The notes under the pieces were generated by a model. The model did not search any database. It worked only from the letters and a program-made list of their open reading frames with translations, and was not told the origin of the DNA. 64,000 nt of DNA from an uncultured virus (IMG/VR IMGVR_UViG_3300028416_000015) (taxonomy: Duplodnaviria > Heunggongvirae > Uroviricota > Caudoviricetes > Crassvirales): IMG/VR virus record IMGVR_UViG_3300028416_000015; one strand, 5' to 3'. Each line of letters starts with the position of its first letter. Position 1 is the stretch's first letter. Shown piece after piece: positions 41,010 through 55,744 of the stretch. The position numbers were made by a program, and so were the translations under genes.

Positions 41010-41549
41010 TTATTTTATTTTTAAATTTAACTTAAGATTTATTAATGCTTTATAAGCTTCATCTTCTTCAATATAACTTTTTGTAAAAAACTGCTTTCCG
41101 TTTTTCCATATAGAACCTCTCCATCTTATGTTTGAATGTTTTATGTATTTACTTACACCTATATATTTAGAAGTTTTATTTTTTTTATCCAAAGATTTTA
41201 TTGTATTATCTCTCTGCGTTATTATTTGAATATTTTTAATGTTATTATTAAACTTATTTCCATCTATATGATCAATAACCAATCCCAAACTTTTATCGTA
41301 TCTATGATTAAAGAATGCAAGAGCTACCAATCTATGAATAGTAAAAGTTTCTCTTTTTGAATTTACAGATAAAACTGTTGATAAATACCCTCTACCGTTT
41401 ATATGTGGACTCATAAGTTTACCTTTTTTTATAAACTTATATTTACCTTTCATCATAACCAACCTATCCAAACTTCTAACGTTACCTAGATCACTCACCT
41501 GATAAATCCCTTCATACCCAGGGACGTCTTTCCAAATTTCTTCTTGCAT
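41010..41549 (-). CDS. NUMOD4-HNH(-AP2-like) homing endonuclease family protein
   Basis: E.WKDVPGYEG.YQVS.LG.V.S, IHRLVA..F, DHIDG.K.NN, SKY.GV. Confidence 0.85.
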   Translation of the reverse strand: MQEEIWKDVPGYEGIYQVSDLGNVRSLDRLVMMKGKYKFIKKGKLMSPHINGRGYLSTVLSVNSKRETFTIHRLVALAFFNHRYDKSLGLVIDHIDGNKFNNNIKNIQIITQRDNTIKSLDKKNKTSKYIGVSKYIKHSNIRWRGSIWKNGKQFFTKSYIEEDEAYKALINLKLNLKIK

Positions 41550-41696
41550 ATTTTTGCGTTTAAATAATTGCGTTTAAATAAATGAAATGGGGAAACCGTA
41601 AACGCTTCGGCTTTCGATAAGGTAATTACTCCTCGTCTATCCCCATCGCAAATATAATAATTTATTTTAAAAGTCAAGTATTTTTTTAATTTAATT

Positions 41697-41789
41697 AAAA
41701 AACCTGTACTTCAGAGGTGGAAGACTCATCATACAGGCTTTTGTAATGAATTTCTTTAAACGCTTCCACTCGTTTGTTCGTCAAATGTA
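41697..41789 (-). ncRNA. kissing-loop structured RNA, copy C
   Basis: Promoter box, hairpin with loop AGTGGAAG, second hairpin whose loop contains CTTCCAC, then a U tract. Confidence 0.55.
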
Positions 41790-41830
41790 TATTTAATTAT
41801 CTAATAATACAAATTATTTATAAAAAATAT

Positions 41831-41965
41831 TTATACCTCATCATCTTTAAGACCTGTCTTTACAATAACAGTATAATGAACATTATACATCCTGTTCCAT
41901 TTAGCTCTTAAAACTAATGCTTGTCTTAATCTTCTAGTAATCTCTCCTCTTCTAAGTCTATACAT
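41831..41965 (-). CDS. 44-aa hypothetical protein (not in ORF track)
   Basis: MYRLRRGEITRRLRQALVL...DDEV*. Confidence 0.35.
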   Translation of the reverse strand: MYRLRRGEITRRLRQALVLRAKWNRMYNVHYTVIVKTGLKDDEV

Positions 41966-42411
41966 AATTGCTTTGTGTTTTCTTCGTAATCAATAGTTGG
42001 TGTTCTCTTGTCTATTAAATGAATGATTGTTGAGTGCTTACCTATGCCTGAATAACCCAACTCATCAGCTGCATTGTCAAGCGTCTTAATCTCCTTGAAC
42101 TCTCTAATGTTCTTATCCCACCACTGTAACAAGAACTGTCTCTGATCGACAACAAGTGAACGTCTTGTCCTCTTACTTAAATCATACTTCTCTACAGCTA
42201 GTCTAAACAAGTCATCATAATTAATGTCAGACTCATATAAACGTCTTGTAAGCTCTTCTATCTTCTGGTCCATAGTAAGAGACGTTTTTAAATTTATACG
42301 TCTCCATAGGTCTTTTGTTGCTGTGGGGATTTCTTCCCATGCTCTAATGCTTTCTTCTAAATTCATATTTTCTTCTGTGTTTTGGTAAATGACCCTGGAT
42401 TCTTTCTTCAA
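41926..42411 (-). CDS. hypothetical protein, possible DnaA-C-like HTH
   Basis: R.R..V..RQ...A..LG....HSTIIH pattern. Confidence 0.55.
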   Translation of the reverse strand: MKKESRVIYQNTEENMNLEESIRAWEEIPTATKDLWRRINLKTSLTMDQKIEELTRRLYESDINYDDLFRLAVEKYDLSKRTRRSLVVDQRQFLLQWWDKNIREFKEIKTLDNAADELGYSGIGKHSTIIHLIDKRTPTIDYEENTKQLCIDLEEERLLED

Positions 42412-42706
42412 TCTCTTCCTCCATTGCCGACATTCTATTACTACTCTTTCTCATTTTCTGTACTGTCAAAGTAATTAACTCTTGACTGCACCTCATTATA
42501 TGTGCTACGACTACTATCTTTATATTCATATTAACAACCAAGTGGTATATGATATGATGTTTCAACATTGTGTCAATCTTATCTGGGCTATTCATCTCAT
42601 CCCGAAAGACCTCTCTAACTCTATCTCTTAAAGTTATCATGTTCTGATAGTATTCTATCCGCTTCTCTAAGAAGTCTATCCGTAGCCATGGCTTTTTAAT
42701 TATCAT
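42344..42706 (-). CDS. hypothetical protein
   Basis: ORF track. Confidence 0.6.
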   Translation of the reverse strand: MIIKKPWLRIDFLEKRIEYYQNMITLRDRVREVFRDEMNSPDKIDTMLKHHIIYHLVVNMNIKIVVVAHIMRCSQELITLTVQKMRKSSNRMSAMEEEIEERIQGHLPKHRRKYEFRRKH

Positions 42707-42720
42707 AACTTAATTGTTGT

Positions 42721-43029
42721 TTAATAACCCATATTTTGACAATCACCTACTTTTGGTAATTGTTCTTTTGTATAATAGTCTTTTGAATAATTAAACTCTC
42801 TAAATTTTTGCATTTTATTACAATCATTTATTGTTGTTATATGACACCAAAAATAAGAGCTTGTTCCTGATTGAGCATCGCCAATCATATTAAATACTTT
42901 AATGCTTACAATTCTATCACAATTACAATCTTGAGTATTTTCTTGATTACTTTGTTCATTTGGTTTAATTTCTTCTTTATCACAACTAAATAAAGCTGCT
43001 AATCCTAATACTAATAATACTCTTTTCAT
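42721..43029 (-). CDS. lipoprotein
   Basis: MKRVLLVLGLAALFSC lipobox followed by an acidic DKEE segment. Confidence 0.75.
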   Translation of the reverse strand: MKRVLLVLGLAALFSCDKEEIKPNEQSNQENTQDCNCDRIVSIKVFNMIGDAQSGTSSYFWCHITTINDCNKMQKFREFNYSKDYYTKEQLPKVGDCQNMGY

Positions 43030-43037
43030 AATCTTCT

Positions 43038-43397
43038 TTAATCTAATTCAATCTCGTCACTAGCCAAGTCAATCTCTGCATCCATCTCTCTCAAGAATGA
43101 ACTACTGAAAGGTGGTAAGACCTCTTTAAAGTCATACCAATGGCTTATATTATCGTTCTGCTCGTCCTCATAACTCAAATAAGCTGATCTAATAACCAAC
43201 TCTAAGTTCATAAAGTTCTCCTCCTCATCCTGCAGAACCAAATAACCATCCTCAACTCTAGGCTCAATGCTCTCACTCTCATTCATCTCTAACTCCAGAC
43301 AATCACGTCTACCTCTAGCTCCCATCATTATACACATATCTAATGACTTATACACTATACCATCATACATCCAAACTGTTCTCATATCAAACCACAT
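43038..43397 (-). CDS. hypothetical protein
   Basis: ORF track. Confidence 0.6.
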   Translation of the reverse strand: MWFDMRTVWMYDGIVYKSLDMCIMMGARGRRDCLELEMNESESIEPRVEDGYLVLQDEEENFMNLELVIRSAYLSYEDEQNDNISHWYDFKEVLPPFSSSFLREMDAEIDLASDEIELD

Positions 43398-43546
43398 AAA
43401 AAATTAATCCAACATACCAGTGCCGCCATAAGCAACAAATATATAGATATACTCAATAAATAACTACCTTTTTTTAAAATAAATGGCAAACTAAATGCCG
43501 TTAAACCAAATGCTATCATTAGCAAAAAATACATAAATGTTTCCAT
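43382..43546 (-). CDS. 54-aa two-TM membrane protein (not in ORF track)
   Basis: METFMYFLLMIAFGL...CGLI*, hydrophobic. Confidence 0.5.
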   Translation of the reverse strand: METFMYFLLMIAFGLTAFSLPFILKKGSYLLSISIYLLLMAALVCWINFLCGLI

Positions 43547-43944
43547 ACTCCTATTTATTGCACACAGAAAATGTTACACTCCTACGTCTAGAACTCTTCT
43601 GTATGCCTTATTAATACTATAAATCTTAATACTCCTACATATCGCACACACCTCATCACAAACTTTTTTTATTTTTTCTCTCTTTATATATATTTTATTT
43701 TCAAAAAACATTACGAAAAATGTATTCAATATGTAGGAGTCTCAGCTATCCCTTACTACCACTAGCTTTAAACACTCTTGTTACACTGTGTTCTAACAAT
43801 AGGAGTTTCGTTTTTGTTACATTTACCTAACACTTAAAGTGCTGATAATCAATACCTATTTACTCCTATTTGTAGCCTATATTCTCAGCAAAAACTACCC
43901 TAAAATTGACTCCTTACCTAGGAACTGTAACATCGAAAACTAGC
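43547..43944. repeat. iteron-like module, copy 1
   Basis: ACTCCTA x4 and TAGGAGT x2 around an AT-rich core; colinear with 49864-50236. Confidence 0.7.
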
Positions 43945-44207
43945 AGGTCTTCATCACTTTCACTCTCATCCATGTAATATCGACCAGGAGATATGTCAAA
44001 ACTATTAACACAAAAGCTACGCCATCCGTATTTACTTATCGCACTTGTTTTATATAATTTAGCATTGTAGTCAATGGTTGGTATCGATAATTTTATATAT
44101 CCGTCCTCTATTTTAACGATCAAGTATTCGTTCTTAAACATCAAATGTTTAGAGCTTACCACATAATTATTAGCTCTACTATGTTTATTTATATTTATAT
44201 AATTCAT
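43914..44207 (-). CDS. hypothetical protein
   Basis: ORF track. Confidence 0.6.
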   Translation of the reverse strand: MNYININKHSRANNYVVSSKHLMFKNEYLIVKIEDGYIKLSIPTIDYNAKLYKTSAISKYGWRSFCVNSFDISPGRYYMDESESDEDLLVFDVTVPR

Positions 44208-44875
44208 ATTTTATTTAATTTAATTAACGCATCCTGATAATATTTGCTAGCTTCTTCTTCTGAATCAAAACTACCTAGGTGTTTTAATTTACCGTTTATT
44301 CTTATTTGTGATACCCATTTACTTCTCTGTTTACGCCAAAAAACACCTTTATATTTAGAAGAGTATTTATGTTTCTTGATTTTCACTTCAGTACCTTCTT
44401 CTATAGATTTTAATGCATTCTGATAATATTTATTGGCTTCTTCTTCTAAATCAAAATAACCTAAGAATTTTGATTTTCCGTTTATTTCTATTGATGACAT
44501 CCATTTATTGCTATTTTTACTCCAACAAACACCAGTGTACTTTGATGATCCCTTCCTATCTTTACTTGTGTTTTCTCTAACACTTATAAGCTGTAAATTA
44601 GATAATCTATTGTTTAACTTATCATTATCTATATGATCTACTATTATTTTCATTGTGCCATCTGGAGCATGATTCAAGAATGCCATCGCTACCAATTGGT
44701 GTATTTTAACATTTTTTACTTTTTCTTTATCACAAAGATTAAGACATAAATAACCCTTGTTATTTACAGATGGTTTTAAAATTTTTTCTCTGTTAAATTT
44801 AAGGCTCTTAACTCTACCTAGGTCACTCACTTGATAACTGCCTTCGTAACCAGGTACATCTTTAAATATTTCCAT
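44204..44875 (-). CDS. NUMOD4-HNH-AP2x2 endonuclease family protein
   Basis: MEIFKDVPGYEG.YQVS, DHIDNDKLNN, two SKY.GV.W...KW...I.INGK...LG.F..EEEA repeats. Confidence 0.85.
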   Translation of the reverse strand: MEIFKDVPGYEGSYQVSDLGRVKSLKFNREKILKPSVNNKGYLCLNLCDKEKVKNVKIHQLVAMAFLNHAPDGTMKIIVDHIDNDKLNNRLSNLQLISVRENTSKDRKGSSKYTGVCWSKNSNKWMSSIEINGKSKFLGYFDLEEEANKYYQNALKSIEEGTEVKIKKHKYSSKYKGVFWRKQRSKWVSQIRINGKLKHLGSFDSEEEASKYYQDALIKLNKI

Positions 44876-44977
44876 AAACAAAAAGCCCATCAAGTTTTCA
44901 GGGTAGTGCATCCTTACTCACTTAATGGGTCTTCAATAATGTTTTTAATACTGGCACTACTCAGTTATACAAAGATA
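44876..44977 (-). ncRNA. kissing-loop structured leader RNA, copy B
   Basis: Loop AGTAGTGC pairs with GCACTAC in the second hairpin loop. Confidence 0.6.
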
Positions 44978-45005
44978 ACTAAATAATTCATATTATTTTC
45001 AATTT

Positions 45006-45239
45006 CTAATCTATTAGTTCAACTTCGCTCGGGTCATATTCAACACCATCGACCTCTATATATCCACAAGTGTCAAACAATTCTCTTACAGTAATTGCCT
45101 TGCCATCGTACAAATATTCATACAACATACACCCTGCATTGTTAATATCTGTATCATCCATAAAGTACCAATCAAGGAACTGTCTCTTTGTTATCTTTGC
45201 TTTCATAACCTCTGGCTTTTTATAATTCATAACTACCAT
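45006..45239 (-). CDS. hypothetical protein
   Basis: ORF track. Confidence 0.6.
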   Translation of the reverse strand: MVVMNYKKPEVMKAKITKRQFLDWYFMDDTDINNAGCMLYEYLYDGKAITVRELFDTCGYIEVDGVEYDPSEVELID

Positions 45240-45550
45240 GAAACCTCTACTGAATAGCTAGGCGACCACAATATAACACGAAAACCCTTTTCTTCTAAGT
45301 AAGGCTTCATCTCTGTTTCTACTAATGTTTGAATAGTGAACTTGTTATTGAATAATTCTCGCATTAATTCATAATTATTGTTTCTTGATAAGTTATCTGT
45401 TAATCTTATTTTATTCTTTTTAAGCTTTTTAGCATAACTTTTAAATTCTGGTAGCAGTACCTCATTAAATACTCTGTCTAGCTTTTTAATATCTATATCT
45501 TTACTCACTGTACTACTTAATTCTTGTAACTCTTGTATAATATCTTTCAT
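45233..45550 (-). CDS. hypothetical protein
   Basis: ORF track. Confidence 0.65.
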   Translation of the reverse strand: MKDIIQELQELSSTVSKDIDIKKLDRVFNEVLLPEFKSYAKKLKKNKIRLTDNLSRNNNYELMRELFNNKFTIQTLVETEMKPYLEEKGFRVILWSPSYSVEVSW

Positions 45551-48256: not shown

Positions 48257-48598
48257 CTATTTATTTAAATAATTCACTTGAATGGTTTCTTTGTTCTTAT
48301 GGATATGCATTAATATCTTATAACTCGAATACTCTCCTTTTTTATTTGGTTCTATATTCGCTTTAAAATATTCATACAGGTCCTTTCTTTTACTTTGTCT
48401 TATTACCTCTTCTATTATAGGACAAACCTCAAACTTTTGTTCGTCCTTAAACTTTACAATATTGTCTAATTGCTTTCTTAATGTATATAAATTCGCTTTG
48501 TACATTTGGTTAAAAAGTTGTACTTCTTTGTATTCGCTAATGAATGGTAAATCCATACCTTTAATGTAGTCACCGATTTTTTTAATTACTTTTTTCAT
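48257..48598 (-). CDS. hypothetical protein (first gene of the leftward arm)
   Basis: ORF track; A-rich leader. Confidence 0.65.
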   Translation of the reverse strand: MKKVIKKIGDYIKGMDLPFISEYKEVQLFNQMYKANLYTLRKQLDNIVKFKDEQKFEVCPIIEEVIRQSKRKDLYEYFKANIEPNKKGEYSSYKILMHIHKNKETIQVNYLNK

Positions 48599-49058
48599 AA
48601 CTTTTATTTTTATTTATTTATTAATTTAATTATTTGTACCTATACAACAAACCAATGTTATATAGGTATATATAATAAGCCACGTGAAACTGCTTACACT
48701 CTATTAATCCCTTATCTTTTTGGATAGGTTTTGACTATATACCAACTGAGAATTGTATTTATAGCCCTACAACTTGGACGGTATTTTATGCCCCGTTTTT
48801 TGCAGCCAGGGCAAAACTAAATTAATAGTTAAGAGTTTACCCCTGTTAATTATACTTTTATATTTCAATGAACGACTTACGCAATTAAATGCAGCCTTAA
48901 ATACTCAATTCTAGTCTGACAAATAGTCTGAACAGTCTTATTCCATTACGTTTGCCCTCGCATCCGTTAACTTGTTACTGTTATTTATTTGCCGTTAAAA
49001 ATCTTTAGATTCTTTTTTCAAGGATTAAACAACTCGTTTGTTGTTCGTTTTGTTGTTA

Positions 49059-49302
49059 CAAAGATATGTATTAAGTTTTGATTGTGCAAGCTTTTTTTAA
49101 TATTTATTTTCTTAGTGTGCCTATTTTGCCATTTCTTCAAATGTTGTCTATTCATAAGAGACTATTAAAGTAAGATAATTAAATTTATTAACTACCTATA
49201 TTAATATGCCTTTTAAATACTAAACTTGTCAATTTTAAACTTCGCTACCGTTGTAACTACATTACAAAGATAGTAAACAAATGTTAATAAACAAGCTTTT
49301 TA
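49059..49302 (-). promoter_or_regulatory. tandem leftward early promoters
   Basis: TATCTTTG boxes at 49059-49066 and 49265-49272, each preceded by AAAAAGCTTG. Confidence 0.6.
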
Positions 49303-49863
49303 TAAAAAATTATTAGTCCGATTTTTTGACAAAATTTAACAATCGCTTGATAGTTAGATGTTTAAATCGCTCTGAAGGGCAAAAATAAATTTTTTAAAGT
49401 GGGGAGAGGGAGGGAGGGGTGTCATAATGTCAGTACTAAATGTATCTAACCAACAAAAAAAGTTGGCAACATGACAGAATGACAGACTGACAGGCGTTTG
49501 GCTTGTAAATAAATAGGCAATTAAATAGATAGGTAGACAATAAGCAACAGAACGACCGATCGACAAACAGAACGACCGAAAAAGAAACCTACCTATCTAA
49601 ATAAAGCCAAAACAAAAAGCCAAAAACGTGGAGCGAAAAAACAAAACTCAAGCACCCCCATACGAAAATAAGATCGGTTTCCCTTTTCAAAAGTTTTTGT
49701 AAAATGCTACTATTACCCAAACCCTCCGAATTTCTGACAATTACACCAAATGTTACAGTTAAAAGCTCTACAGCCCACGTCAGCTGTACAATCGGGCGAA
49801 AACGGCTGTTTCTAGACCAATAGCAAAGTGGGTTCTATCCCTTGCTATGACTGAATATCCGAA

Positions 49864-50236
49864 ACTCCTACATGGTTCATATCACAGCTCCTACGTCGGG
49901 ATACAGCGCTACGACTAGGAAACATATACTCCTACGGGGCGCACCACCTCTTTCGAACTTTTTTTTATTTTTCTATATATATATATATATTTTATTTTGA
50001 AATCTATTGAAAAAAGTAGGTTAGTGGTAGGAGTCATCGTCAAACCTAGATACAGTAAGGGCTAGAGTACAATATGTTCAGTTTGTGCACTGCTTAGGAG
50101 TTTCGGGATTTGTTACATTTGCGATTACATAAACCCTAGTGTTTATAGGGGGTCTTTACTCCTATTGGGTGCACATATCCTCAGCTGAGAGCGTAAAAAT
50201 ATGACTCCCTTCCTAGGAACTCTACACACTACTAGC
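49864..50236. repeat. iteron-like module, copy 2 (candidate origin)
   Basis: Same motif order and similar spacing as 43547-43944; (TA)n core. Confidence 0.7.
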
Positions 50237-50320
50237 GTTGCACCCCGAAAGGTACAAATAAATCAGTATTTTCTTGCATAGTTAAAAAAAAGGCGTTACA
50301 TTTGTCAAAAATTCAATATT

Positions 50321-51046
50321 ATGAGAGAAGGAAAATTTATGGGTCACAGAGTGACTAGCGACGGAAAAATCTTCGGAAAGCGTAATCCTAATGTTACACT
50401 TAAACCGTATTTGAGCCATGGGAAGTTGGCATTAAAGATCAACAGAGAGACACATTATTTGCATAGAATTGTTGCAGAGGTGTTCAATTTGAATGGTTTT
50501 AATAAGTATGACAAGAGTAAGGTTGTGTTATTTAACGATGGAGATTCTATGAACTGTTCTTTGGATAATTTATATGTTCAAGATTTAGAGGATAGGATGA
50601 ACGAGGTTAGACAGGAGATGGTTTTAGATATGGGTAGAGGTGTTAAGACTTCTATGTATTCTTATGTTTATGCTAAGAAGGATAAATGGGTTGGTAAGTA
50701 TAAGGGTAAATACTTAGGTACTTTTAAGAATGAGGATGATGCTTACTATGCTGTTGAGGAGCATAGGAGATCAGTTGATACAGTTCCAGTTCATAAGTTC
50801 GATGGTTTGTATAAGGTTAATAGGCTTGGTGACATTTTTAGTGTTAGGTATAATAAGGTGTTGTCTCAAGGTGCGCTTGATGGGTCTGTTTCACTTACTG
50901 ACAAGGATGGTAAGCGTACACGCAGGTCTATTGGGCTGTTGGTGTATAATTCGTTTAATAGGAAGAACCCAGCGAAGAGGGTAACACATATAGATGGTGA
51001 CCCGATGAATAATATGTTAGGTAATTTGAAGGGGGAGAAGGCATGA
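50321..51046 (+). CDS. degenerate tandem HNH/AP2-like protein
   Basis: LHRIVAEVF...DGD..N..LDNL, YLGTF..E.DA, VTHIDGDPMNN.L.NL. Confidence 0.65.
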   Translation: MREGKFMGHRVTSDGKIFGKRNPNVTLKPYLSHGKLALKINRETHYLHRIVAEVFNLNGFNKYDKSKVVLFNDGDSMNCSLDNLYVQDLEDRMNEVRQEMVLDMGRGVKTSMYSYVYAKKDKWVGKYKGKYLGTFKNEDDAYYAVEEHRRSVDTVPVHKFDGLYKVNRLGDIFSVRYNKVLSQGALDGSVSLTDKDGKRTRRSIGLLVYNSFNRKNPAKRVTHIDGDPMNNMLGNLKGEKA

Positions 51047-51171
51047 GTAAATTAATTATAATAATAGCTTGTATATTATTTCTGACAGGATGTGTATCTT
51101 CGTCAGAGATATATGATGGCTACAGTAGAGGTGGTCATCCATTGGGTAAAAGTAAATATAAGGGGAAATGA
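51043..51171 (+). CDS. 42-aa lipoprotein (not in ORF track)
   Basis: MSKLIIIIACILFLTGC lipobox; ATGA overlaps on both sides. Confidence 0.6.
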   Translation: MSKLIIIIACILFLTGCVSSSEIYDGYSRGGHPLGKSKYKGK

Positions 51172-51347
51172 GAGAACAAGAACTACAGGAAGAGATAGAA
51201 AGACTTAGAGCTACATTAAAAGGCGATATATTTGCCGATGGAGAGACTATGCAGAAGATCTATGAGATTAAGAAGATGTTGAATCCAGCTATCGTTGAGC
51301 GTCCAGAATTGGATGAAGATGATGAGTGTCTTAGTTGTGGTGCGTAA
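51168..51347 (+). CDS. 59-aa protein with C-terminal CxxC (not in ORF track)
   Basis: MREQELQEEIERL...DEDDECLSCGA*. Confidence 0.6.
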   Translation: MREQELQEEIERLRATLKGDIFADGETMQKIYEIKKMLNPAIVERPELDEDDECLSCGA

Positions 51348-51625
51348 TGTTTGGAGTATTAAGAGCACCAAAAGAGAAGCTCACTAAGGCTGTATATCAG
51401 AAGAAGAAGATGACTTATGAGGATGCTGTTATGTACTACAATCCACAATGGATTGAGCGTAAGGCACTTAAGTATTTAAAAAAGAATCACAGACGACTTA
51501 TGAGTATGGATGACTTCTTGGACGAGCTGTATGAGCAGTTTAAGCATAGGATAGTAAATTTACCTATGTATAAGAATAAGAATGGTAATGGCTATGTAGG
51601 TCAAGTTTATAAAGAGAGAGTATGA
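51347..51625 (+). CDS. hypothetical protein
   Basis: Start MFGVLRAP coupled by a TAATG overlap. Confidence 0.55.
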   Translation: MFGVLRAPKEKLTKAVYQKKKMTYEDAVMYYNPQWIERKALKYLKKNHRRLMSMDDFLDELYEQFKHRIVNLPMYKNKNGNGYVGQVYKERV

Positions 51626-51773
51626 TAAGATTTTTGGTTACATATAAGAGAGTTCACAATTTCGAGATTACTACAGAACCTTTAACTGTTGTGGAGAAGA
51701 ACTTGTTTGAAAGAGAGTTGTTGAAGGATAGTAACGTTGAGTATGCTTACTCGACACAAATACAGATAATAAA

Positions 51774-51968
51774 ATGATAAATAAGATAGGATTGGTATTT
51801 GGGGTTGTTCTTATGATAGTATTTTACTACATAACGTTCAACCCTCAGATATTAGACGTAGAGACAGAGTTTGATCGCTTGTACAGGATAATAGGTACAT
51901 TTGTAGCTAGTCATGGTTTTTTTGGTGCATATTTATGGATAAATTATAAGGAATGGAGAGGATATTAA
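51774..51968 (+). CDS. small membrane protein
   Basis: Two hydrophobic segments. Confidence 0.6.
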   Translation: MINKIGLVFGVVLMIVFYYITFNPQILDVETEFDRLYRIIGTFVASHGFFGAYLWINYKEWRGY

Positions 51969-52327
51969 TAAATAACGAGTGGTACGTAAAGGAATCTAGT
52001 CAAGCACCTAAAGAAGATATTAAGGTTGACTTTATGTTTAGTAACTCATGCATTGTAGAGACAGATAAGTTCTGTTTTGAAGCTACTAGATGTATGAAAG
52101 ATGGTAATGTAGAGTATTATCCAGACATATCTATAGATGTTACAAAAAAAGAAGGTGATAGAAAGGATTGGGGCAAAGAATATTGGGATGGTAATGAATG
52201 GATGAGAGGCGTGTTAAATGGAGACACTAAATGTTTAGCAGGTCTAGCAGAATATGTAACAGACGCTTACAATCAGAAGGTGTTTATGAAATTATTAAAG
52301 AAACTAGGTGAAATAGGTTGGTTATGA
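51953..52327 (+). CDS. hypothetical protein
   Basis: ORF track. Confidence 0.65.
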   Translation: MERILINNEWYVKESSQAPKEDIKVDFMFSNSCIVETDKFCFEATRCMKDGNVEYYPDISIDVTKKEGDRKDWGKEYWDGNEWMRGVLNGDTKCLAGLAEYVTDAYNQKVFMKLLKKLGEIGWL

Positions 52328-52719
52328 TAGTATTAGGTGTAATTTTAGTAGGATTAGCAGGATTTTTTAAAGCTGTGATGGATAAACTTCAGTTCCATTG
52401 GCATAGATCTGTGTTTGCTGTGAATCCTGTTCGTTATAGGGAGTTGTTTTGGAATCCATCTATCAGCTGGATAAACAAGTATGAGCCAGGGACTAACTAT
52501 AAGGAAGAAAGGTTTAAATTCTCAACAACATTGTTAGTATTTTTAACAGATGCTTGGCATTTGGCACAAATGAGTATGACGTTATTGCTTTTTGTTGGTA
52601 TTGGTATGATAGGCTATATGTCTGATAGCTTTTTACAGTTATTATTGTTCGTATCTTTGGCTAGAATACTATACGGAGTTACATTTGAGTTGAGTTTTAA
52701 ATATTTATTAGAAGCATAA
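52318..52719 (+). CDS. membrane protein
   Basis: Hydrophobic segments; W.NKY and TDAWH motifs. Confidence 0.7.
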   Translation: MVMIVLGVILVGLAGFFKAVMDKLQFHWHRSVFAVNPVRYRELFWNPSISWINKYEPGTNYKEERFKFSTTLLVFLTDAWHLAQMSMTLLLFVGIGMIGYMSDSFLQLLLFVSLARILYGVTFELSFKYLLEA

Positions 52720-52852
52720 TGGTTAGATTTGTTGATAAGTTCGCTACTACTAGTTGTTTGACTCTAGGGAATTATTATATAGTAGACCGTGTTGAAGGAA
52801 ATTACTATAGATTAGTAAACGTAAAGTATAAATATCCAAAATATTATTTCGA

Positions 52853-53164
52853 ATGAAGGTAAAAGTAAAATGCATCGATGATAGTATAAAGCCAGAATTC
52901 ATTATAGAAACAGTAAAGTATTTTAAAAATTGGCTCGTGAAGGGCGAGATATACACTGTTTATGATGTTGTAAATAACGATGGCATAGTGGAGGGGTATT
53001 TATTGGAAGAGCTAGAGAACGAGCCAGTGTATCAAAAGTTATTAGGTAAGGAACAAGAACCCGCATTCAGAACTGATCGGTTTGAAGTCGTATCTTACGA
53101 AGAAGAAGAAGAGGAGGAAGAAAGTGAAGAAGTTGAGCATCTTTTTGAAGTATTTTTGAATTAA
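52853..53164 (+). CDS. hypothetical protein
   Basis: KCIDD...L.KG..YTV...F..DRF; acidic tail. Confidence 0.7.
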   Translation: MKVKVKCIDDSIKPEFIIETVKYFKNWLVKGEIYTVYDVVNNDGIVEGYLLEELENEPVYQKLLGKEQEPAFRTDRFEVVSYEEEEEEEESEEVEHLFEVFLN

Positions 53165-53180
53165 ATTAAAAAATAATTAC

Positions 53181-53280
53181 TATCTTTGTAACCGTTGAGT
53201 CGTACCAACATTTATGAAATTATTTAAAATCCCAGCAATGATAGGAAGTACGACCCTTGATTTGTTGGGTTTTTTATTAT
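53181..53280 (+). ncRNA. kissing-loop structured leader RNA, copy A
   Basis: Loop AGTCGTAC pairs with GTACGAC in the second hairpin loop. Confidence 0.6.
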
Positions 53281-53947
53281 ATGGAAATATTTAAAGACAT
53301 ACCTGGTTATGAGGGTATTTATCAAGTTAGTGATTTAGGTAGAGTTAAGAGCCTTAAGTTTAACAAAGAAAAAATATTAAAGCCAGGAGTAAATAATCAT
53401 GGTTATTATACTGTAGTATTATGCAAAGGAAAACGAAAAACTATTAATGTACATCAATTGGTAGCTATGGCTTTTTTAAATCATGAGCCTTGTGGTTATA
53501 ATGGATTAATAGTAGATCACAAAGATAATAATCCTTTAAACAATAGATTATCTAATCTACAACTAATAAGTCAAAGAGAAAACACAAGTAAAGATAAAAA
53601 AGGATCATCTAAATACACTGGAGTTAGTTGGAATAACCCATAATAGTAAATGGGTTTCATCAATAGTAATAAACGGTAAATTAAAATACCTAGGTTATTT
53701 TGATTTAGAAGAAGAGGCAGGTAAATATTATCAAGATGCGTTAAAATCTATAGAGGAAGGAAGTGAAATAATAGTTAAAGAACCTAAAACATCTTCTAAG
53801 TACAATGGTGTTTGTTGGGATAAAAGAGCTAATAAATGGAGATCTGTTATAAAAATAAACGGAAAACAAAAACACTTAGGTAGTTTCAACTGTGAACTAG
53901 CAGCATCTGCTGCATATCAAAAAAAACTAGCCGAAATAAGTAAATAA
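53281..53947 (+). pseudogene. frameshifted NUMOD4-HNH-AP2x2 paralog
   Basis: Stops at 53643, but homology to 44204..44875 continues in the +1 frame (HNSKWVSSIVINGKLKYLGYFDLEEEA...) to TAA at 53947. Confidence 0.75.
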
Positions 53948-53987: not shown

Positions 53988-55472
53988 ATGGACAAAAAAT
54001 TAGAAAAAATGGTCGTTTTTGATAAGAAAGACTTATTAGAAGGAGTTGAGACTTTAAGAAACGCAGTTGAAGTAACATTAGGACCTAAAGGGGAGTACGT
54101 TCTGCTGCAATCGCCACTCTATGTTGGCGGTAAGGCTTACACTAAGGACGGCGTAAGTGTTGCTAAGGCGGTTATCTTAGACAATAAGATTCAAGATCTT
54201 GGTATTCAAACGGTTAGAGAGGCTGCTCTTAAGACAGCTGAGGAGTCTGGTGACGGAACTAGTAATACAATCATCGTGGCTTCATCGTTGGTTGAGGCAG
54301 CAGATGACTTTATTGATGAGAGTCATAACAAGAATGAGGTTATTCGTGACATGAATGCGATAGCCAAAGAGGTTGAGAAGTATTTATTGAAGAAATCTAA
54401 GAAGTGTAATAACTTGACTTTGCGTAAAGTCGCTGAGATAGCAGGTAATGGCGATAAATCTACAGCTAAAATGGTTGCTGACTTGTATAAGAATACAGAG
54501 CAGATAATTTTAGAGAGAGGTAAAAAGTCTAGTACTTATTCAGAGGTTATTGATGGTTTAGTTATTGACCGTGGTTTTACGTCTAAGTTCTTTGTTAATA
54601 ATCAGAAGAGACAAGAGTGCGTTTTAGAGGACGCTTTAATCTTATTCACTGATACAGAGATAGATAACACTCAGTCTATTGAGCATGTATTAAAATATGT
54701 TGTTAAGGAGGATATTCCTTTACTTATCGTAGGTAATTTAACAGCTCCTGCATTGGCTACAATGAACTTGAACGTTCAGAAGGGGAATATTAAGTTTGCT
54801 AATATAATTCCACCTAGTATGGGTTATCAGAAGGAATTACTTATGACAGACTTAGCTGCTATGAGTGGTGGTATCTTCTATAGTGAGATGAGTGGTGATA
54901 ATCTTAGAGATGTTACTTTAGAAGGTCTAGGTAAAGCCTCTAAGGTTGTTGTAGGTAAAGATAAGACTATTATTATACCAAAAGAAGAGAATACAAGCTA
55001 TTTAAACGAAATCAAAGGTTCTGAACAGACAGACTTCTTAAAAGAGCGTATAAGTAAGATTTCTGGAAACTTATCTACTATATATGTAGGAGCTAAAACT
55101 GAGTCAGAGACTAATGAGTTGTATGACAGAATAGAAGATGTTATCTTGAGTTGTAAATCAGCTATCGAGCAAGGTGTATTACCTGGTGGAGGTGTAGCGT
55201 TAAAGGATGCGTTCTTGAATTGTGATATTGAAGCTAGTGATGTAGCTTATAAGATAATGAGACAAGGGTTATTCACACCTATACAAACATTATCTGGATA
55301 TAAGCCTGTGAATACGGAGAGAGGGATAGGTTATGACGCAAGAACTGGAGAAGAATGTGATGTAGCTAAGAAAGGGATTTATGATCCAACTAAAGTTACA
55401 ATATCAGTTCTTCAGAACTCTATGTCTGTAGCAACAACAATTATTAACACAAAAACTATTGTCTTACAATGA
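53988..55472 (+). CDS. groEL: phage chaperonin GroEL-like
   Basis: TLGPKG, TKDGVSVAK, GDGT, IDRGF.S.FF, GVLPGGGVAL, GIYDP.KV. Confidence 0.95.
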   Translation: MDKKLEKMVVFDKKDLLEGVETLRNAVEVTLGPKGEYVLLQSPLYVGGKAYTKDGVSVAKAVILDNKIQDLGIQTVREAALKTAEESGDGTSNTIIVASSLVEAADDFIDESHNKNEVIRDMNAIAKEVEKYLLKKSKKCNNLTLRKVAEIAGNGDKSTAKMVADLYKNTEQIILERGKKSSTYSEVIDGLVIDRGFTSKFFVNNQKRQECVLEDALILFTDTEIDNTQSIEHVLKYVVKEDIPLLIVGNLTAPALATMNLNVQKGNIKFANIIPPSMGYQKELLMTDLAAMSGGIFYSEMSGDNLRDVTLEGLGKASKVVVGKDKTIIIPKEENTSYLNEIKGSEQTDFLKERISKISGNLSTIYVGAKTESETNELYDRIEDVILSCKSAIEQGVLPGGGVALKDAFLNCDIEASDVAYKIMRQGLFTPIQTLSGYKPVNTERGIGYDARTGEECDVAKKGIYDPTKVTISVLQNSMSVATTIINTKTIVLQ

Positions 55473-55744
55473 AAGCATTAGGACACTATATATTAATAAA
55501 GCCAATAGAGAAAACTAAGGAGACCAATAAAAAGACAGGTCTCCTTCTAACCTCTACATCAGCAGAGAATGAGCGTTACCAAGAAGGTATCGTTCAACTT
55601 GTTGGAAATCAGATAGATACTATAAAAGAAGGTCAAAAAATCTCCTTCGACAAAGTCTCAGGTCATTATATCAAGATAGATGATGAGCATCTAATGATTA
55701 TAACTTTTCGAGACGTTGTTCTAGTTTTTGATGAGGAGGAATAG
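55469..55744 (+). CDS. groES: co-chaperonin GroES-like
   Basis: MKALG..ILIKP...GLLL...G.V..VG; ATGA-coupled to groEL. Confidence 0.85.
   Translation: MKALGHYILIKPIEKTKETNKKTGLLLTSTSAENERYQEGIVQLVGNQIDTIKEGQKISFDKVSGHYIKIDDEHLMIITFRDVVLVFDEEE

What the first reader, a model, noticed from the sequence alone, without database searches (positions are those of the whole stretch)
44876..44977. Covarying kissing-loop RNA family leading NUMOD4-HNH-AP2 genes
Seen in three copies (53181-53280 +, 44876-44977 -, 41697-41789 -) with one architecture. A TAnnTTTG box is followed by hairpin 1 with an 8-nt loop (GTTG-AGTCGTAC-CAAC; ACTG-AGTAGTGC-CAGT; AAACG-AGTGGAAG-CGTTT), then an ~20-nt A/U linker. Hairpin 2 (CCCAGCAA/TTGTTGGG; CCCATTAAGT/ACTTGATGGG; CCTGTAT/GTACAGG) has a large loop carrying the exact 7-nt complement of loop 1 (GTACGAC; GCACTAC; CTTCCAC), preceded by a GA-rich run and followed by C..TGA, then a U tract. 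All three pairings change sequence yet keep complementarity. In two copies the HNH ATG follows within ~10 nt. Inference: an uncharacterised structured RNA acting as attenuator, antitoxin-like or nuclease-associated RNA, each copy with its own 7-nt key.
Basis: partly seen in the sequence, partly recalled or inferred. Interest (0 to 1): 0.85.

Follow-up and report, generated by a model that had tools for sequence, protein, structure and literature searches.

The report
Self-kissing terminator leader before phage nucleases
Three copies of a roughly 85-base folded RNA leader, whose first hairpin tip base-pairs with the tip of a transcription-stop hairpin, sit between a promoter and selfish DNA-cutting (HNH) genes of this marine phage; the fold is real and widespread, has no described function, and most likely limits how much nuclease is made.

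Summary
Each copy has a Bacteroidota-type -7 promoter box, then a 5'-terminal hairpin (P1) and a ~20-nt A/U linker. A long hairpin follows (P2a, a G.A-type internal loop, a 3-bp P2b), then a U tract. The P2b loop carries the exact 7-nt complement of the P1 loop.

Covariance models that do not encode the loop-loop pairing found 13 further sequences in viral, metagenome and phage records. All 13 keep a perfect loop-loop complement of 7 nt or more, with differing letters. On 13 aligned sequences 99.6% of cells pair and 18 of 21 pairs change on both sides (0 of 500 shuffles). Rfam has no match.

The hosts of related phages are Bacteroidota, and a cultured phage (Flavobacterium phage FCV-1) carries the element. 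One copy precedes a Prim-Pol gene, not an HNH gene. About 70 of 96 related HNH genes lack the element, which argues against an antitoxin role.

The best reading is a promoter-proximal attenuator or insulator leader (0.5). Whether the kiss promotes or opposes termination is unknown. A bulk catalogue published in 2023 probably lists the family anonymously. Earlier agents of this scan met it in other genomes.

The parts
53181..53188 (+). Copy A: -7 promoter box TATCTTTG (a TTTG lies 22 nt upstream at 53155-53158)
   Evidence: The consensus TANNTTTG with G at -5 is taken from passages of PMC6847099, which puts the start of transcription at about 53193, 1 nt before P1.
53194..53209 (+). Copy A: hairpin P1 (GTTG/CAAC), 8-nt loop AGTCGTAC; loop bases 53199-53205 form the kiss
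53210..53230 (+). Copy A: 21-nt A/U linker (holds GAAATT; A-rich 3' end next to the terminator stem)
53231..53269 (+). Copy A: hairpin P2. P2a 53231-53238 with 53262-53269; internal loop UGAU/UGAU; P2b AGG/CCU 53243-53245 with 53255-53257; apical loop with key GTACGAC 53248-53254
53270..53275 (+). Copy A: U tract (TTTTTT) that completes an intrinsic-terminator-like site
   Evidence: A DNA-run contig diverges from the window exactly at 53275 (tables 7 and 8).
53281..53947 (+). HNH gene A: NUMOD4 and HNH_3 in 53281-53643, then a frameshift; the AP2-like part is open in another frame at 53615-53947
44970..44977 (-). Copy B: -7 promoter box TATCTTTG; the predicted start of transcription is at 44965, the first base of P1
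44950..44965 (-). Copy B: hairpin P1 (ACTG/CAGT), loop AGTAGTGC
44930..44949 (-). Copy B: 20-nt A/U linker
44886..44929 (-). Copy B: hairpin P2. P2a 10 bp; internal loop GAGUA/GAAA; P2b AGG/CCU; key GCACTAC 44903-44909
   Evidence: This stretch with its promoter is 96-100% identical to the syntenic relative L058, while the flanks are 50-86% identical.
44876..44885 (-). Copy B: U-rich tract CTTTTTGTTT that runs straight into the ATG
44204..44875 (-). HNH gene B (NUMOD4, HNH_3, two AP2 stretches); start ATG at 44875
41782..41789 (-). Copy C: -7 promoter box TACATTTG (TTTG 20 nt upstream)
41758..41775 (-). Copy C: hairpin P1 (AAACG/CGTTT), loop AGTGGAAG
41738..41757 (-). Copy C: 20-nt linker AAAGAAATTCATTACAAAAG
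41703..41737 (-). Copy C: hairpin P2. P2a CCTGTAT/GTACAGG; internal loop GAU/UGAA; P2b GAG/CUC; key CTTCCAC 41717-41723
41697..41702 (-). Copy C: U tract
   Evidence: DNA-run contigs diverge from the window at 41701 (table 7).
41550..41656 (-). Second, different leader ('type 2') between copy C and HNH gene C. It has its own TATATTTG box (41656-41649), an outer terminator-like stem AUGGGGA/UCCCCAU enclosing two hairpins, and a hairpin loop GCGUUUA complementary to UAAACGC, which occurs twice just before the ATG
   Evidence: The same design with other keys is seen in L024, L023, L018/L019 and L104.
41010..41549 (-). HNH gene C (NUMOD4 and HNH_3)

Best explanation
This is a cis-acting 5' leader RNA of about 80-90 nt. 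It is transcribed from its own Bacteroidota sigma-A-type promoter, and P1 lies at the very 5' end of the transcript.

Its second hairpin, with an A-rich tract before it and a U tract after it, is an intrinsic terminator placed 5-12 nt before the start codon. Transcripts from the leader's own promoter and from upstream genes all meet this terminator. Only the fraction that reads through carries the downstream gene, which is usually a free-standing NUMOD4-HNH homing endonuclease. The start codon of that fraction sits in a U-rich context next to a stable helix.

The result would be low expression of a potentially harmful nuclease, largely independent of the surrounding genes (an attenuator or insulator).

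The 7-bp loop-loop kiss between P1 and the P2b loop stacks on the 3-bp P2b and closes the otherwise large (~25-nt) top of the terminator hairpin. I infer that it sets how fast and how firmly the terminator folds, and so sets the read-through fraction.

Shown here: the fold, its covariation, its position, and the gene context. Inferred: that termination occurs, its strength, and the direction of the kiss's effect (for or against termination).
For: Structure:
- On 13 sequences, 21 pairs are 99.6% paired and 18 have changes on both sides; 0 of 500 shuffles reach this, and slid controls give 32-46% paired.
- The kiss was not part of the models R1 and R2. Yet all 13 sequences that they found beyond the window have a Watson-Crick loop-loop complement of 7 nt or more.
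- G-U pairs occur in the stems (19 of 193 cells), so the pairing is at RNA level on this strand. The kiss has none in 75 cells (Fisher p 0.0025).

Promoter phasing:
- A TAHHTTT[G/A] box lies within 40 nt upstream of P1 in 20 of 23 distinct members. The gap to P1 is 2-8 nt in 16 of those 20, most often 4 nt.
- With G at -5 (PMC6847099, passages), transcription starts 0-2 nt before P1 in the three window copies.
- TANNTTTG is enriched in the window: 120 against 83.4 +/- 9.8. Sigma-70-type sites are not: 64 against 68.4.
- The named hosts of phages related to this one are all Bacteroidota.

Terminator anatomy:
- The base of P2a is G+C-rich (CCC.../...GGG) and is followed by 5-8 U. The ATG follows 5-12 nt later.

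Context:
- Every strong model hit lies just upstream of a NUMOD4-HNH gene. This holds for the window (3 hits), G001, FCV-1 and the nine hits in metagenome loci.

Selection:
- The leader with its promoter is 96-100% identical between window B and the syntenic L058, where the flanks are 50-86% identical.

Read-through:
- RNA-library contigs of two studies (X3 44783-45383, X4 44792-45411) bridge leader B from the upstream gene into the HNH gene. These could be DNA carried in the library.

Precedent:
- T-even phage homing-endonuclease genes are held down by terminators and hairpins at their 5' ends. About 30% of transcripts end at the terminator inside mobE (PMC2988022, passages).
Against: - No transcript end, termination efficiency or expression level was measured. 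The public RNA runs are held only as contigs, which cannot show ends, strand or level.
- A plain short-looped terminator would attenuate as well, so attenuation alone does not explain why a perfect 7-bp kiss and a conserved G.A or AGUA/GAA internal loop are kept.
- The promoter lies upstream of the terminator, and copy C is followed by a second promoter. Copy C is therefore a self-contained small transcription unit, which fits a stand-alone small RNA as well.
- Genes downstream of HNH B overlap it (ATGA at 44204-44207) and would suffer from a strong terminator.
- In the one characterised RNA of similar architecture, the guanidine-IV riboswitch, the kiss opposes the terminator (PMC11611296, passages). 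The sign of the effect here is open.
Confidence: 0.5

Rival explanations
1. Stand-alone stable small RNA. The product that matters is the terminated ~85-nt RNA itself. Both of its ends are buried in helices and the kiss compacts it. It would act in trans on a host or phage target through the exposed conserved linker (AAGAAAUU-like), or as a protein decoy. The HNH gene merely rides behind it.
For: - The promoter lies directly upstream of an RNA that ends in a terminator.
- Copy C is a complete unit followed by another promoter.
- P1 begins at the predicted 5' end.
- A linker motif recurs in many members (AAGAAATT or AAGAACTT).
- The whole element, linker included, is 96-100% conserved against L058.
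- DNA-run variants keep the leader but diverge right after it (53275 and 41701).
Against: - The ATG follows within 5-12 nt in nearly all members, with no room for another promoter. The downstream gene therefore depends on read-through.
- In the 10 records searched whole, the element appears only in front of genes, one copy per homing-endonuclease gene.
- No complementary target was found or sought genome-wide, because no host genome is held.
- The linker motif is absent from the Prim-Pol copy.
Confidence: 0.2
2. Conditional switch. The kiss or the G.A / loop-E-like internal loop is read by a trans factor: a phage or host protein, an antiterminator, the HNH protein itself, or a small ligand, Mg2+ or temperature. 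That factor toggles termination and so times expression during infection. This would resemble the guanidine-IV riboswitch or lambda PR'-tR' with Q (the lambda case is recalled).
For: - The architecture is that of guanidine-IV: P1 and P2 loops kiss and the terminator is built on P2.
- Non-helical features are conserved. G-A occurs on both strands of the internal loop in all 13 core sequences. An AGUA/GAA motif occurs in either strand orientation in other members.
- Two kissing pairs are invariant.
Against: - Five of the seven kiss positions vary freely, and the loops have almost no unpaired conserved bases for a ligand pocket.
- No alternative (antiterminator) pairing was found. The test for pairing between the -7 box region and the linker was null.
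- No Rfam riboswitch matches.
- No candidate factor was identified.
Confidence: 0.15
3. RNA partner of the nuclease: a type-III-antitoxin-like inhibitor, a target-site mimic or a guide. Its key would match the specificity of its own HNH enzyme.
For: - The order promoter, RNA, terminator, nuclease gene is that of type III toxin-antitoxin loci (recalled).
- The three copies in one genome have three different keys.
Against: - By the descriptor 70 of 96 non-redundant close HNH relatives have no such RNA.
- 0 of 78 HNH loci in cellular genomes have it.
- One copy leads a Prim-Pol gene.
- The same key (GUAGUGC/GCACUAC) serves HNH proteins only 43% identical, window B and FCV-1.
- There are no tandem repeats as in ToxI.
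- The HNH, NUMOD4 and AP2 domains are DNA-binding and DNA-cutting modules.
Confidence: 0.05
4. It mainly acts after transcription, on the full-length mRNA. A 5'-terminal structure would protect the message from 5'-end-dependent decay, and a helix abutting the start codon would lower translation initiation in a host without Shine-Dalgarno sequences. Termination would be incidental.
For: - P1 lies at the predicted 5' end.
- The start codon lies 5-12 nt after a stable helix in a U-rich context.
- In Flavobacterium, structure around the start codon lowers initiation and A at -3 raises it (PMC6847099, abstract and passages).
- The type-2 leader pairs a loop with repeats just before the ATG.
Against: - Copy C is not adjacent to a start codon.
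- The U tract and the G+C-rich stem base are kept, as expected for a terminator rather than a mere roadblock.
- The 2023 catalogue's terminator predictor called its probable counterpart a terminator.
Confidence: 0.08

Closest known systems
Guanidine-IV riboswitch (mepA motif)
   Same: Two hairpins whose apical loops form a kissing loop. The second hairpin is tied to an intrinsic terminator with a poly-U tail. The kiss decides termination against read-through (PMC11611296, passages read).
   Different: There the kiss depends on the ligand and competes with completion of the terminator stem. That the guanidine-IV loops are conserved is recalled, not taken from the paper passages. Here 5 of the 7 kiss positions vary, the kiss is 7 Watson-Crick pairs with no wobble, and no alternative pairing was found. 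The RNA leads phage nuclease genes, and Rfam gives no match.
Regulatory terminators and hairpins of T-even phage homing-endonuclease genes (mobE, segF, I-TevI/II/III, segB, Aeh1 mobE)
   Same: Expression of selfish endonucleases is held down by RNA structure at the 5' end of the gene. About 30% of transcripts end at the terminator inside mobE (PMC2988022, passages read).
   Different: Those are simple hairpins inside the ORF or over the ribosome-binding site, often with a late promoter inside the hairpin. None has a kissing loop. They rely on Shine-Dalgarno sequences and T4 promoter classes. Here a separate leader with its own Bacteroidota promoter lies upstream of the ORF.
Anonymous candidate structured RNA 'DNAVirus_8377' in the bulk catalogue of PMC10690425 (supplementary tables)
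   Same: It is 105 nt long, has 88 sequences, and its terminator prediction is 'yes'. The viral contigs are mostly aquatic and all 8 predicted hosts are Bacteroidetes. It lies within 25 bp upstream of genes with HNH_3 (12), NUMOD4 (9), AP2 (6) and GIY-YIG domains. It is probably this family.
   Different: Identity could not be checked, because the files that hold the sequences were not readable. The paper's main text has no occurrence of 'HNH' or 'kissing'. The fold, the loop-loop pairing and any function are therefore not described there.
Type III toxin-antitoxin loci (ToxIN-like) - recalled, not read here
   Same: The order promoter, structured RNA, terminator, nuclease gene, where the terminator sets the ratio of RNA to nuclease message.
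   Different: There are no tandem RNA repeats. The enzyme is a DNA endonuclease of a homing type. Most homologous HNH genes lack the RNA, and one copy leads a Prim-Pol gene.
Kissing-loop leaders reported by earlier agents of this scan in other phage genomes
   Same: Same architecture, context and conclusion in 8 other windows from rumen, lake and other phages.
   Different: These are unchecked AI notes and not independent evidence. This window adds three copies in one genome, a tandem arrangement with the type-2 leader, a near-identical copy in a syntenic relative, and a member in a cultured phage.

Membership tests
Any Rfam 15 family (including riboswitch, ribozyme and HEARO/omega-RNA models) | Match to a curated covariance model | tested here: not met
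   No match at gathering score in the whole window. At E<=10 on 41400-45200 there were only two unrelated weak matches, and they lie elsewhere. There was no match at E<=5 on 48400-53400.
Guanidine-IV riboswitch (mepA motif) | Conserved loop nucleotides that form the ligand-dependent kissing loop | tested here: not met
   The loop sequences differ in nearly every member: 5 of 7 positions vary. That the guanidine-IV loops are conserved is recalled, not read.
Guanidine-IV riboswitch (mepA motif) | The kiss competes with completion of the terminator stem (two exclusive folds) | tested here: inconclusive
   Constrained folds hold the kiss and the full P2a together. No alternative helix was found. 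Steric competition cannot be judged from sequence.
Intrinsic (Rho-independent) terminator | G+C-rich stem directly followed by a U tract | tested here: met
   P2a has 7-10 bp with a CCC/GGG base, followed by 5-8 U, in all three copies and in the relatives. The simple scan tool missed it because it allows only loops of 3-8 nt.
Intrinsic (Rho-independent) terminator | Transcripts end at the U tract | not testable with these tools
   The RNA runs are held as contigs only, and contigs cannot show ends.
Bacteroidota sigma-A promoter | -7 element TANNTTTG (TAHHTTTG) with G at -5, and a -33 TTTG | tested here: met
   The boxes lie at 53181-53188, 44977-44970 and 41789-41782, each with a TTTG or TTG 20-22 nt upstream. 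Across the family 20 of 23 members have a box. The consensus is from PMC6847099. Promoter activity was not measured.
Type III toxin-antitoxin RNA | Tandem repeats of the antitoxin RNA, and an obligate pairing with its toxin | tested here: not met
   There is a single unit per gene. By the descriptor 70 of 96 close HNH relatives lack it. One copy precedes a Prim-Pol gene. The defining features are recalled.
T4-type translational hairpins of homing-endonuclease genes | A hairpin sequesters the ribosome-binding site, and a late promoter inside the hairpin frees it | tested here: not met
   No TANNTTTG box lies between P1 and the ATG in copies A and B. The start codon lies outside the helix. Bacteroidota mRNAs lack Shine-Dalgarno sequences (PMC6847099 abstract).
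Catalogue entry DNAVirus_8377 (PMC10690425) | Sequence or alignment identity | not testable with these tools
   Only the summary tables could be read. Length, terminator call, hosts and downstream domains agree.

The most novel reading that the evidence does not exclude
The leader is a modular 'landing pad and lock' for accessory genes of Bacteroidota phages. It is a portable promoter-leader unit kept almost unchanged, while the gene behind it is exchanged: different HNH genes, GIY-YIG genes, a Prim-Pol gene. Its sequence-programmable 7-bp kiss would be an addressable switch. Each copy could be opened on its own by a matching trans factor or RNA, so that several otherwise identical attenuators in one genome are controlled independently.
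Probability: 0.12. Interest if true: 0.85.

Novelty: new variant of a known kind. Interest (0 to 1): 0.6.

Why it matters
Free-standing homing endonucleases are the commonest selfish genes of phages. How they are kept harmless has been studied almost only in T4-like phages of E. coli. Here a whole clade of aquatic Bacteroidota phages, including a cultured one, uses a different and more elaborate device: an intramolecular kissing loop built onto a terminator, directly behind the promoter.

For RNA biology it is a clean, strongly covarying, small tertiary motif that Rfam lacks. It combines a kiss, a 3-bp helix and a G.A or loop-E-like internal loop. It is also a natural set of mutually orthogonal loop-loop pairs.

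For phage genomics it marks homing-endonuclease cassettes and transcription-unit boundaries in genomes where promoters and terminators are rarely annotated.

If the kiss tunes termination, it offers a simple programmable attenuator for Bacteroidota, a phylum with few genetic parts.

Tried and rejected
1. MAFFT alignments of the copies were not structurally consistent. I therefore built a single-sequence model from copy A and iterated from it.

2. Loose descriptors gave many A/T-rich chance hits: 35 hits in the window, and 531 hits over 241 kb. The stricter descriptor with shuffled controls replaced them. On the reverse strand it still hits 6 of 96.

3. By eye, the linker and the 5' half of P2a looked like the HNH N-terminal coding sequence (MEIFKD.PGYEG). 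Over 22 members the mean z was 0.66. This did not differ from a control segment of the same genes (Wilcoxon p 0.22). The first version of that script took wrong start codons and is void. The idea is rejected as unsupported.

4. I tested for pairing between the -7 box region and the linker, a possible way to tell upstream read-through transcripts from those of the leader's own promoter. The 19 printed z-scores scatter around 0. The script stopped with a division error on the 20th of 22 members. Rejected.

5. RNA-library contigs:
   - Contig ends at 44783/44792 and at 41694 coincide with paralogous repeats or strain junctions, so they say nothing about RNA ends.
   - The lack of RNA-library cover over about 49520-53800, and contig depths, cannot be read as expression levels.

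6. A loose-end sequence that follows 53275 in a DNA run has no counterpart in the window. What replaces HNH A in that variant is unknown.

7. Searches that gave little:
   - Megablast of the region against phage records: no match.
   - No whole genome is held for the window.
   - Of 78 HNH loci from cellular genomes, 0 carry the element.
   - Over those loci R2 gave only FCV-1 and a weak hit that is a plain terminator (L146).

8. Five literature searches found no description of this RNA (one search was a look-up of guanidine-IV papers). Look-ups in the scan's own notes by place and by sequence returned nothing.

9. The divergent members L001, L014, L017 and L027 score only 11-18 bits with R2. 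They rest on the descriptor and on folds, not on the model.

Full report
**1. The observation**

All three copies are in the sequence as described. Each has the following parts, in order:
- a TAnnTTTG box;
- 4-6 nt later, a short hairpin P1 (4-5 bp, 8-nt loop);
- a 20-21-nt A/U-rich linker;
- a long hairpin, followed by a U tract.

ViennaRNA folds and model alignments refine the second hairpin. It has an outer stem P2a (7-10 bp, G+C-rich at its base) and an internal loop with G-A on both strands (A: UGAU/UGAU; B: GAGUA/GAAA; C: GAU/UGAA). Above that is a 3-bp helix P2b (AGG/CCU, AGG/CCU, GAG/CUC) and an 8-9-nt apical loop. The last seven bases of the apical loop are the exact complement of bases 2-8 of the P1 loop.

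- In A the ATG of a NUMOD4-HNH gene follows 5 nt after the U tract.
- In B the U-rich tract runs straight into the ATG at 44875.
- In C a second promoter box and a different leader come first, then the HNH gene.

**2. Is it more than chance, and is it an RNA?**

A covariance model built from copy A alone has only the nested helices and no term for the loop-loop pairing. It found B and C in the window and a relative in three viral contigs.

A second model built from five sequences found further members:
- nine in 80 metagenome loci fetched through HNH homologues, each ending 8-12 nt before the HNH match;
- two in the complete viral genome behind L010;
- one in the cultured Flavobacterium phage FCV-1 (49 bits, E 4e-6).

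All 13 sequences found this way beyond the window carry a perfect Watson-Crick loop-loop complement of 7 nt or more, with differing letters. These are L004 (L005 and L064 are further copies of it), L013, L010 twice, L058, L065, L075, L077, L086, L090, L097, L136 and FCV-1. For example, GUCGCUG/CAGCGAC in L077 stands against GUCGCAG/CUGCGAC in L097, and CUGGUCG stands against CUGGUAG in L004 and L065.

On the 13-row alignment A9 I counted 21 pairs, six of them in the kiss:
- 99.6% of cells pair, against 66.0% in shuffles;
- 18 of 21 pairs change on both sides;
- 0 of 500 shuffles reach any of the measures;
- slid controls give 32-46% paired.

The alignment was fitted to P1, P2a and P2b, so those counts lean towards them. 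It was not fitted to the kiss. The stems hold G-U pairs (19 of 193 cells), which are meaningful only in RNA of this strand. The kiss holds none in 75 cells (p 0.0025).

A separate descriptor (hairpin loop, complement inside a U-tailed hairpin) hits 26 of 96 non-redundant regions upstream of HNH genes. In 20 shuffles the mean is 0.45 and the largest value 1. It adds more divergent members: L001, L014, L017, L025, L027, L081, L082, L093, L115, L116, L127 and L135 (folds). It also hits 6 of 96 on the reverse strand, and a few A/T-rich hits are false.

Rfam has nothing at gathering score in the window. Nothing relevant appears at E<=10 or E<=5 around the three copies.

**3. Context**

- The three genes behind the copies are NUMOD4 + HNH_3 proteins. 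B has two AP2 stretches. A is split by a frameshift, with its AP2 part open in another frame.
- A primase-helicase of the window has relatives only in phages whose named hosts are Bacteroidota: Flavobacterium, Nonlabens, Polaribacter, Cellulophaga, Tenacibaculum, Maribacter and Bacteroides.
- TANNTTTG, the -7 element of that phylum's main promoter (PMC6847099, passages), is enriched in the window (120 against 83 +/- 10). Sigma-70-type sites are not.
- Across the family, 20 of 23 distinct members have a TAHHTTT[G/A] box within 40 nt of P1. The gap is 2-8 nt in 16 of those 20. With G at -5, transcription should start 0-2 nt before P1 in the window copies, so P1 is the 5' end of the RNA.
- In 9 other viral or phage records searched whole, strong hits occur only at the HNH gene.
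- The element is not universal. By the descriptor 70 of 96 close HNH relatives lack it, and so do 78 of 78 HNH loci in cellular genomes.
- It is not exclusive either. The second copy in L010 leads a Prim-Pol gene.
- Leader B with its promoter is 96-100% identical to that of the syntenic relative L058. The flanking genes are 50-86% identical.

**4. Evidence from public runs (weak)**

The stretch occurs in seawater metagenomes. RNA-library contigs of two studies bridge leader B from the upstream gene into the HNH gene. This shows contiguous molecules across the terminator, which could be RNA read-through or DNA carried in the library. Contigs cannot show ends or levels.

Contigs of a DNA run diverge from the window exactly at the 3' ends of leaders A (53275) and C (41701) and at the stop codon of HNH B (44203). 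This hints that what follows the leader differs between strains.

**5. Mechanism**

The order promoter, RNA, terminator, ATG, with no room for another promoter in A and B, means the downstream gene can be transcribed only by read-through. That is the anatomy of an attenuator. It fits what is known for T-even homing-endonuclease genes, which are held down by terminators and hairpins at their 5' ends (PMC2988022).

The role of the kiss is inferred. [quoted passage not shown] The sign of the effect here is therefore open.

I found no alternative pairing. The linker's resemblance to the HNH start region did not hold up.

The conserved internal loop (classified by eye) is:
- tandem G.A in 9 members;
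- AGUA/GAA in 5 members;
- the same motif with the strands swapped in 3 members;
- U.U in 4 members.

It could be a structural hinge or a protein site. The loop-E / sarcin-ricin consensus behind this reading is recalled.

Rivals are a stand-alone stable small RNA (copy C is a complete unit), a factor-dependent switch, a role in mRNA stability or translation, and a nuclease-partner RNA. The last is disfavoured by the distribution above.

**6. Comparison and novelty**

It is not a member of any Rfam family. It works most like a leader attenuator, its closest relative in architecture is guanidine-IV, and its closest relative in biology is the regulation of T4 homing-endonuclease genes.

A bulk catalogue of 10,006 candidate viral RNAs lists an unnamed 105-nt entry, DNAVirus_8377. 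It is predicted to hold a terminator, comes from viruses with Bacteroidetes hosts, and lies within 25 bp upstream of HNH_3, NUMOD4, AP2 and GIY-YIG genes. It is probably this family. I could read only the summary tables, and the paper's main text has no occurrence of 'HNH' or 'kissing'.

Eight earlier notes of this scan describe the same kind of leader in other genomes. They are not independent evidence.

My verdict is that this is a real, widespread, functionally uncharacterised RNA family: a new variant of known kinds (attenuator leaders, kissing-loop regulators).

**7. Scores**

Interest is 0.6. Confidence in the attenuator reading is 0.5.

Noticed in passing
window 41550-41656 (-); L024 554-661; L023 967-1088; L018 841-955; L104 about 500-600: A second leader family lies before NUMOD4-HNH genes. 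It has its own TATATTTG box and an outer terminator-like stem with a U tract that encloses two hairpins, one with a GGAGUAAUUACC-like sequence. The loop of the other hairpin is complementary to one or two short repeats between the U tract and the ATG. The pairs are GCGUUUA/UAAACGC x2 in the window, GCAGUUA/UAACUGC x2 in L024, GCUUAGUU/AACUAAGC in L023, CACGGU/ACCGUG in L018 and CUAAGCA/UGCUUAG in L104. In the window it stands in tandem behind kissing-leader copy C.
   Followed up: partly
window 48600-50320, especially 48681-49103 (-): This is a 1.7-kb stretch without ORFs between the diverging gene arms. RNA-library contigs there have mean depths of 43.5 (X4) and 26.5 (X3), against about 2-6 for contigs elsewhere on the minus-strand arm. 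A TATCTTTG box lies at 49066-49059 (-), about 460 nt before the first gene's ATG at 48598. It could be a long leader or an abundant non-coding RNA. Rfam has no match.
   Followed up: partly
window 50114-50320 (+): Two TACATTTG boxes (50114 and 50297) flank a ~170-nt stretch richer in G+C. It lies upstream of a fourth HNH gene (50321-51046, HNH_3 only, no NUMOD4). This may be another structured leader, and it has no kissing leader of the type studied here.
   Followed up: no
window 53281-53947 (+): HNH gene A is broken by a frameshift near 53615-53643. NUMOD4 and HNH_3 are read up to the stop at 53641-53643. The AP2-like repeats are open in another frame up to 53947. It may be a pseudogene, an assembly error or a recoding site.
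   Followed up: partly
window 53275, 41701, 44203: Contigs of a seawater DNA run match the window up to exactly the last U of leader A (53275), the U tract of leader C (41701) and the stop codon of HNH B (44203), and then continue with unlike sequence (tables 7 and 8). The population seems to hold variants in which the leader is kept and what follows is exchanged. The sequence that follows 53275 in the variant is not in the window.
   Followed up: partly
window 53988-55744 (+): The phage encodes a GroEL-like chaperonin (494 aa, Cpn60_TCP1). An adjacent 91-aa ORF (55469-55744) stands in the GroES position but was not scanned against Pfam. Both lie directly behind HNH gene A.
   Followed up: no
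L010 1374-1471 and 2503-2587: A complete 35-kb viral genome carries two kissing leaders 1 kb apart, with different keys (GAUACAG and AUCCACU). One precedes an HNH gene and one precedes a Prim-Pol gene (Pfam E 6e-6). The leader family is therefore not tied to nucleases alone.
   Followed up: yes
L137 493-576 (Flavobacterium phage FCV-1, NC_041845.1 40367-40450): A cultured phage carries the leader before its gene gp61, which is annotated as a hypothetical protein and is a NUMOD4-HNH homologue. It uses the same key as window copy B (GUAGUGC/GCACUAC), although the proteins are only 43% identical. L027 uses the same pair with the strands swapped.
   Followed up: partly
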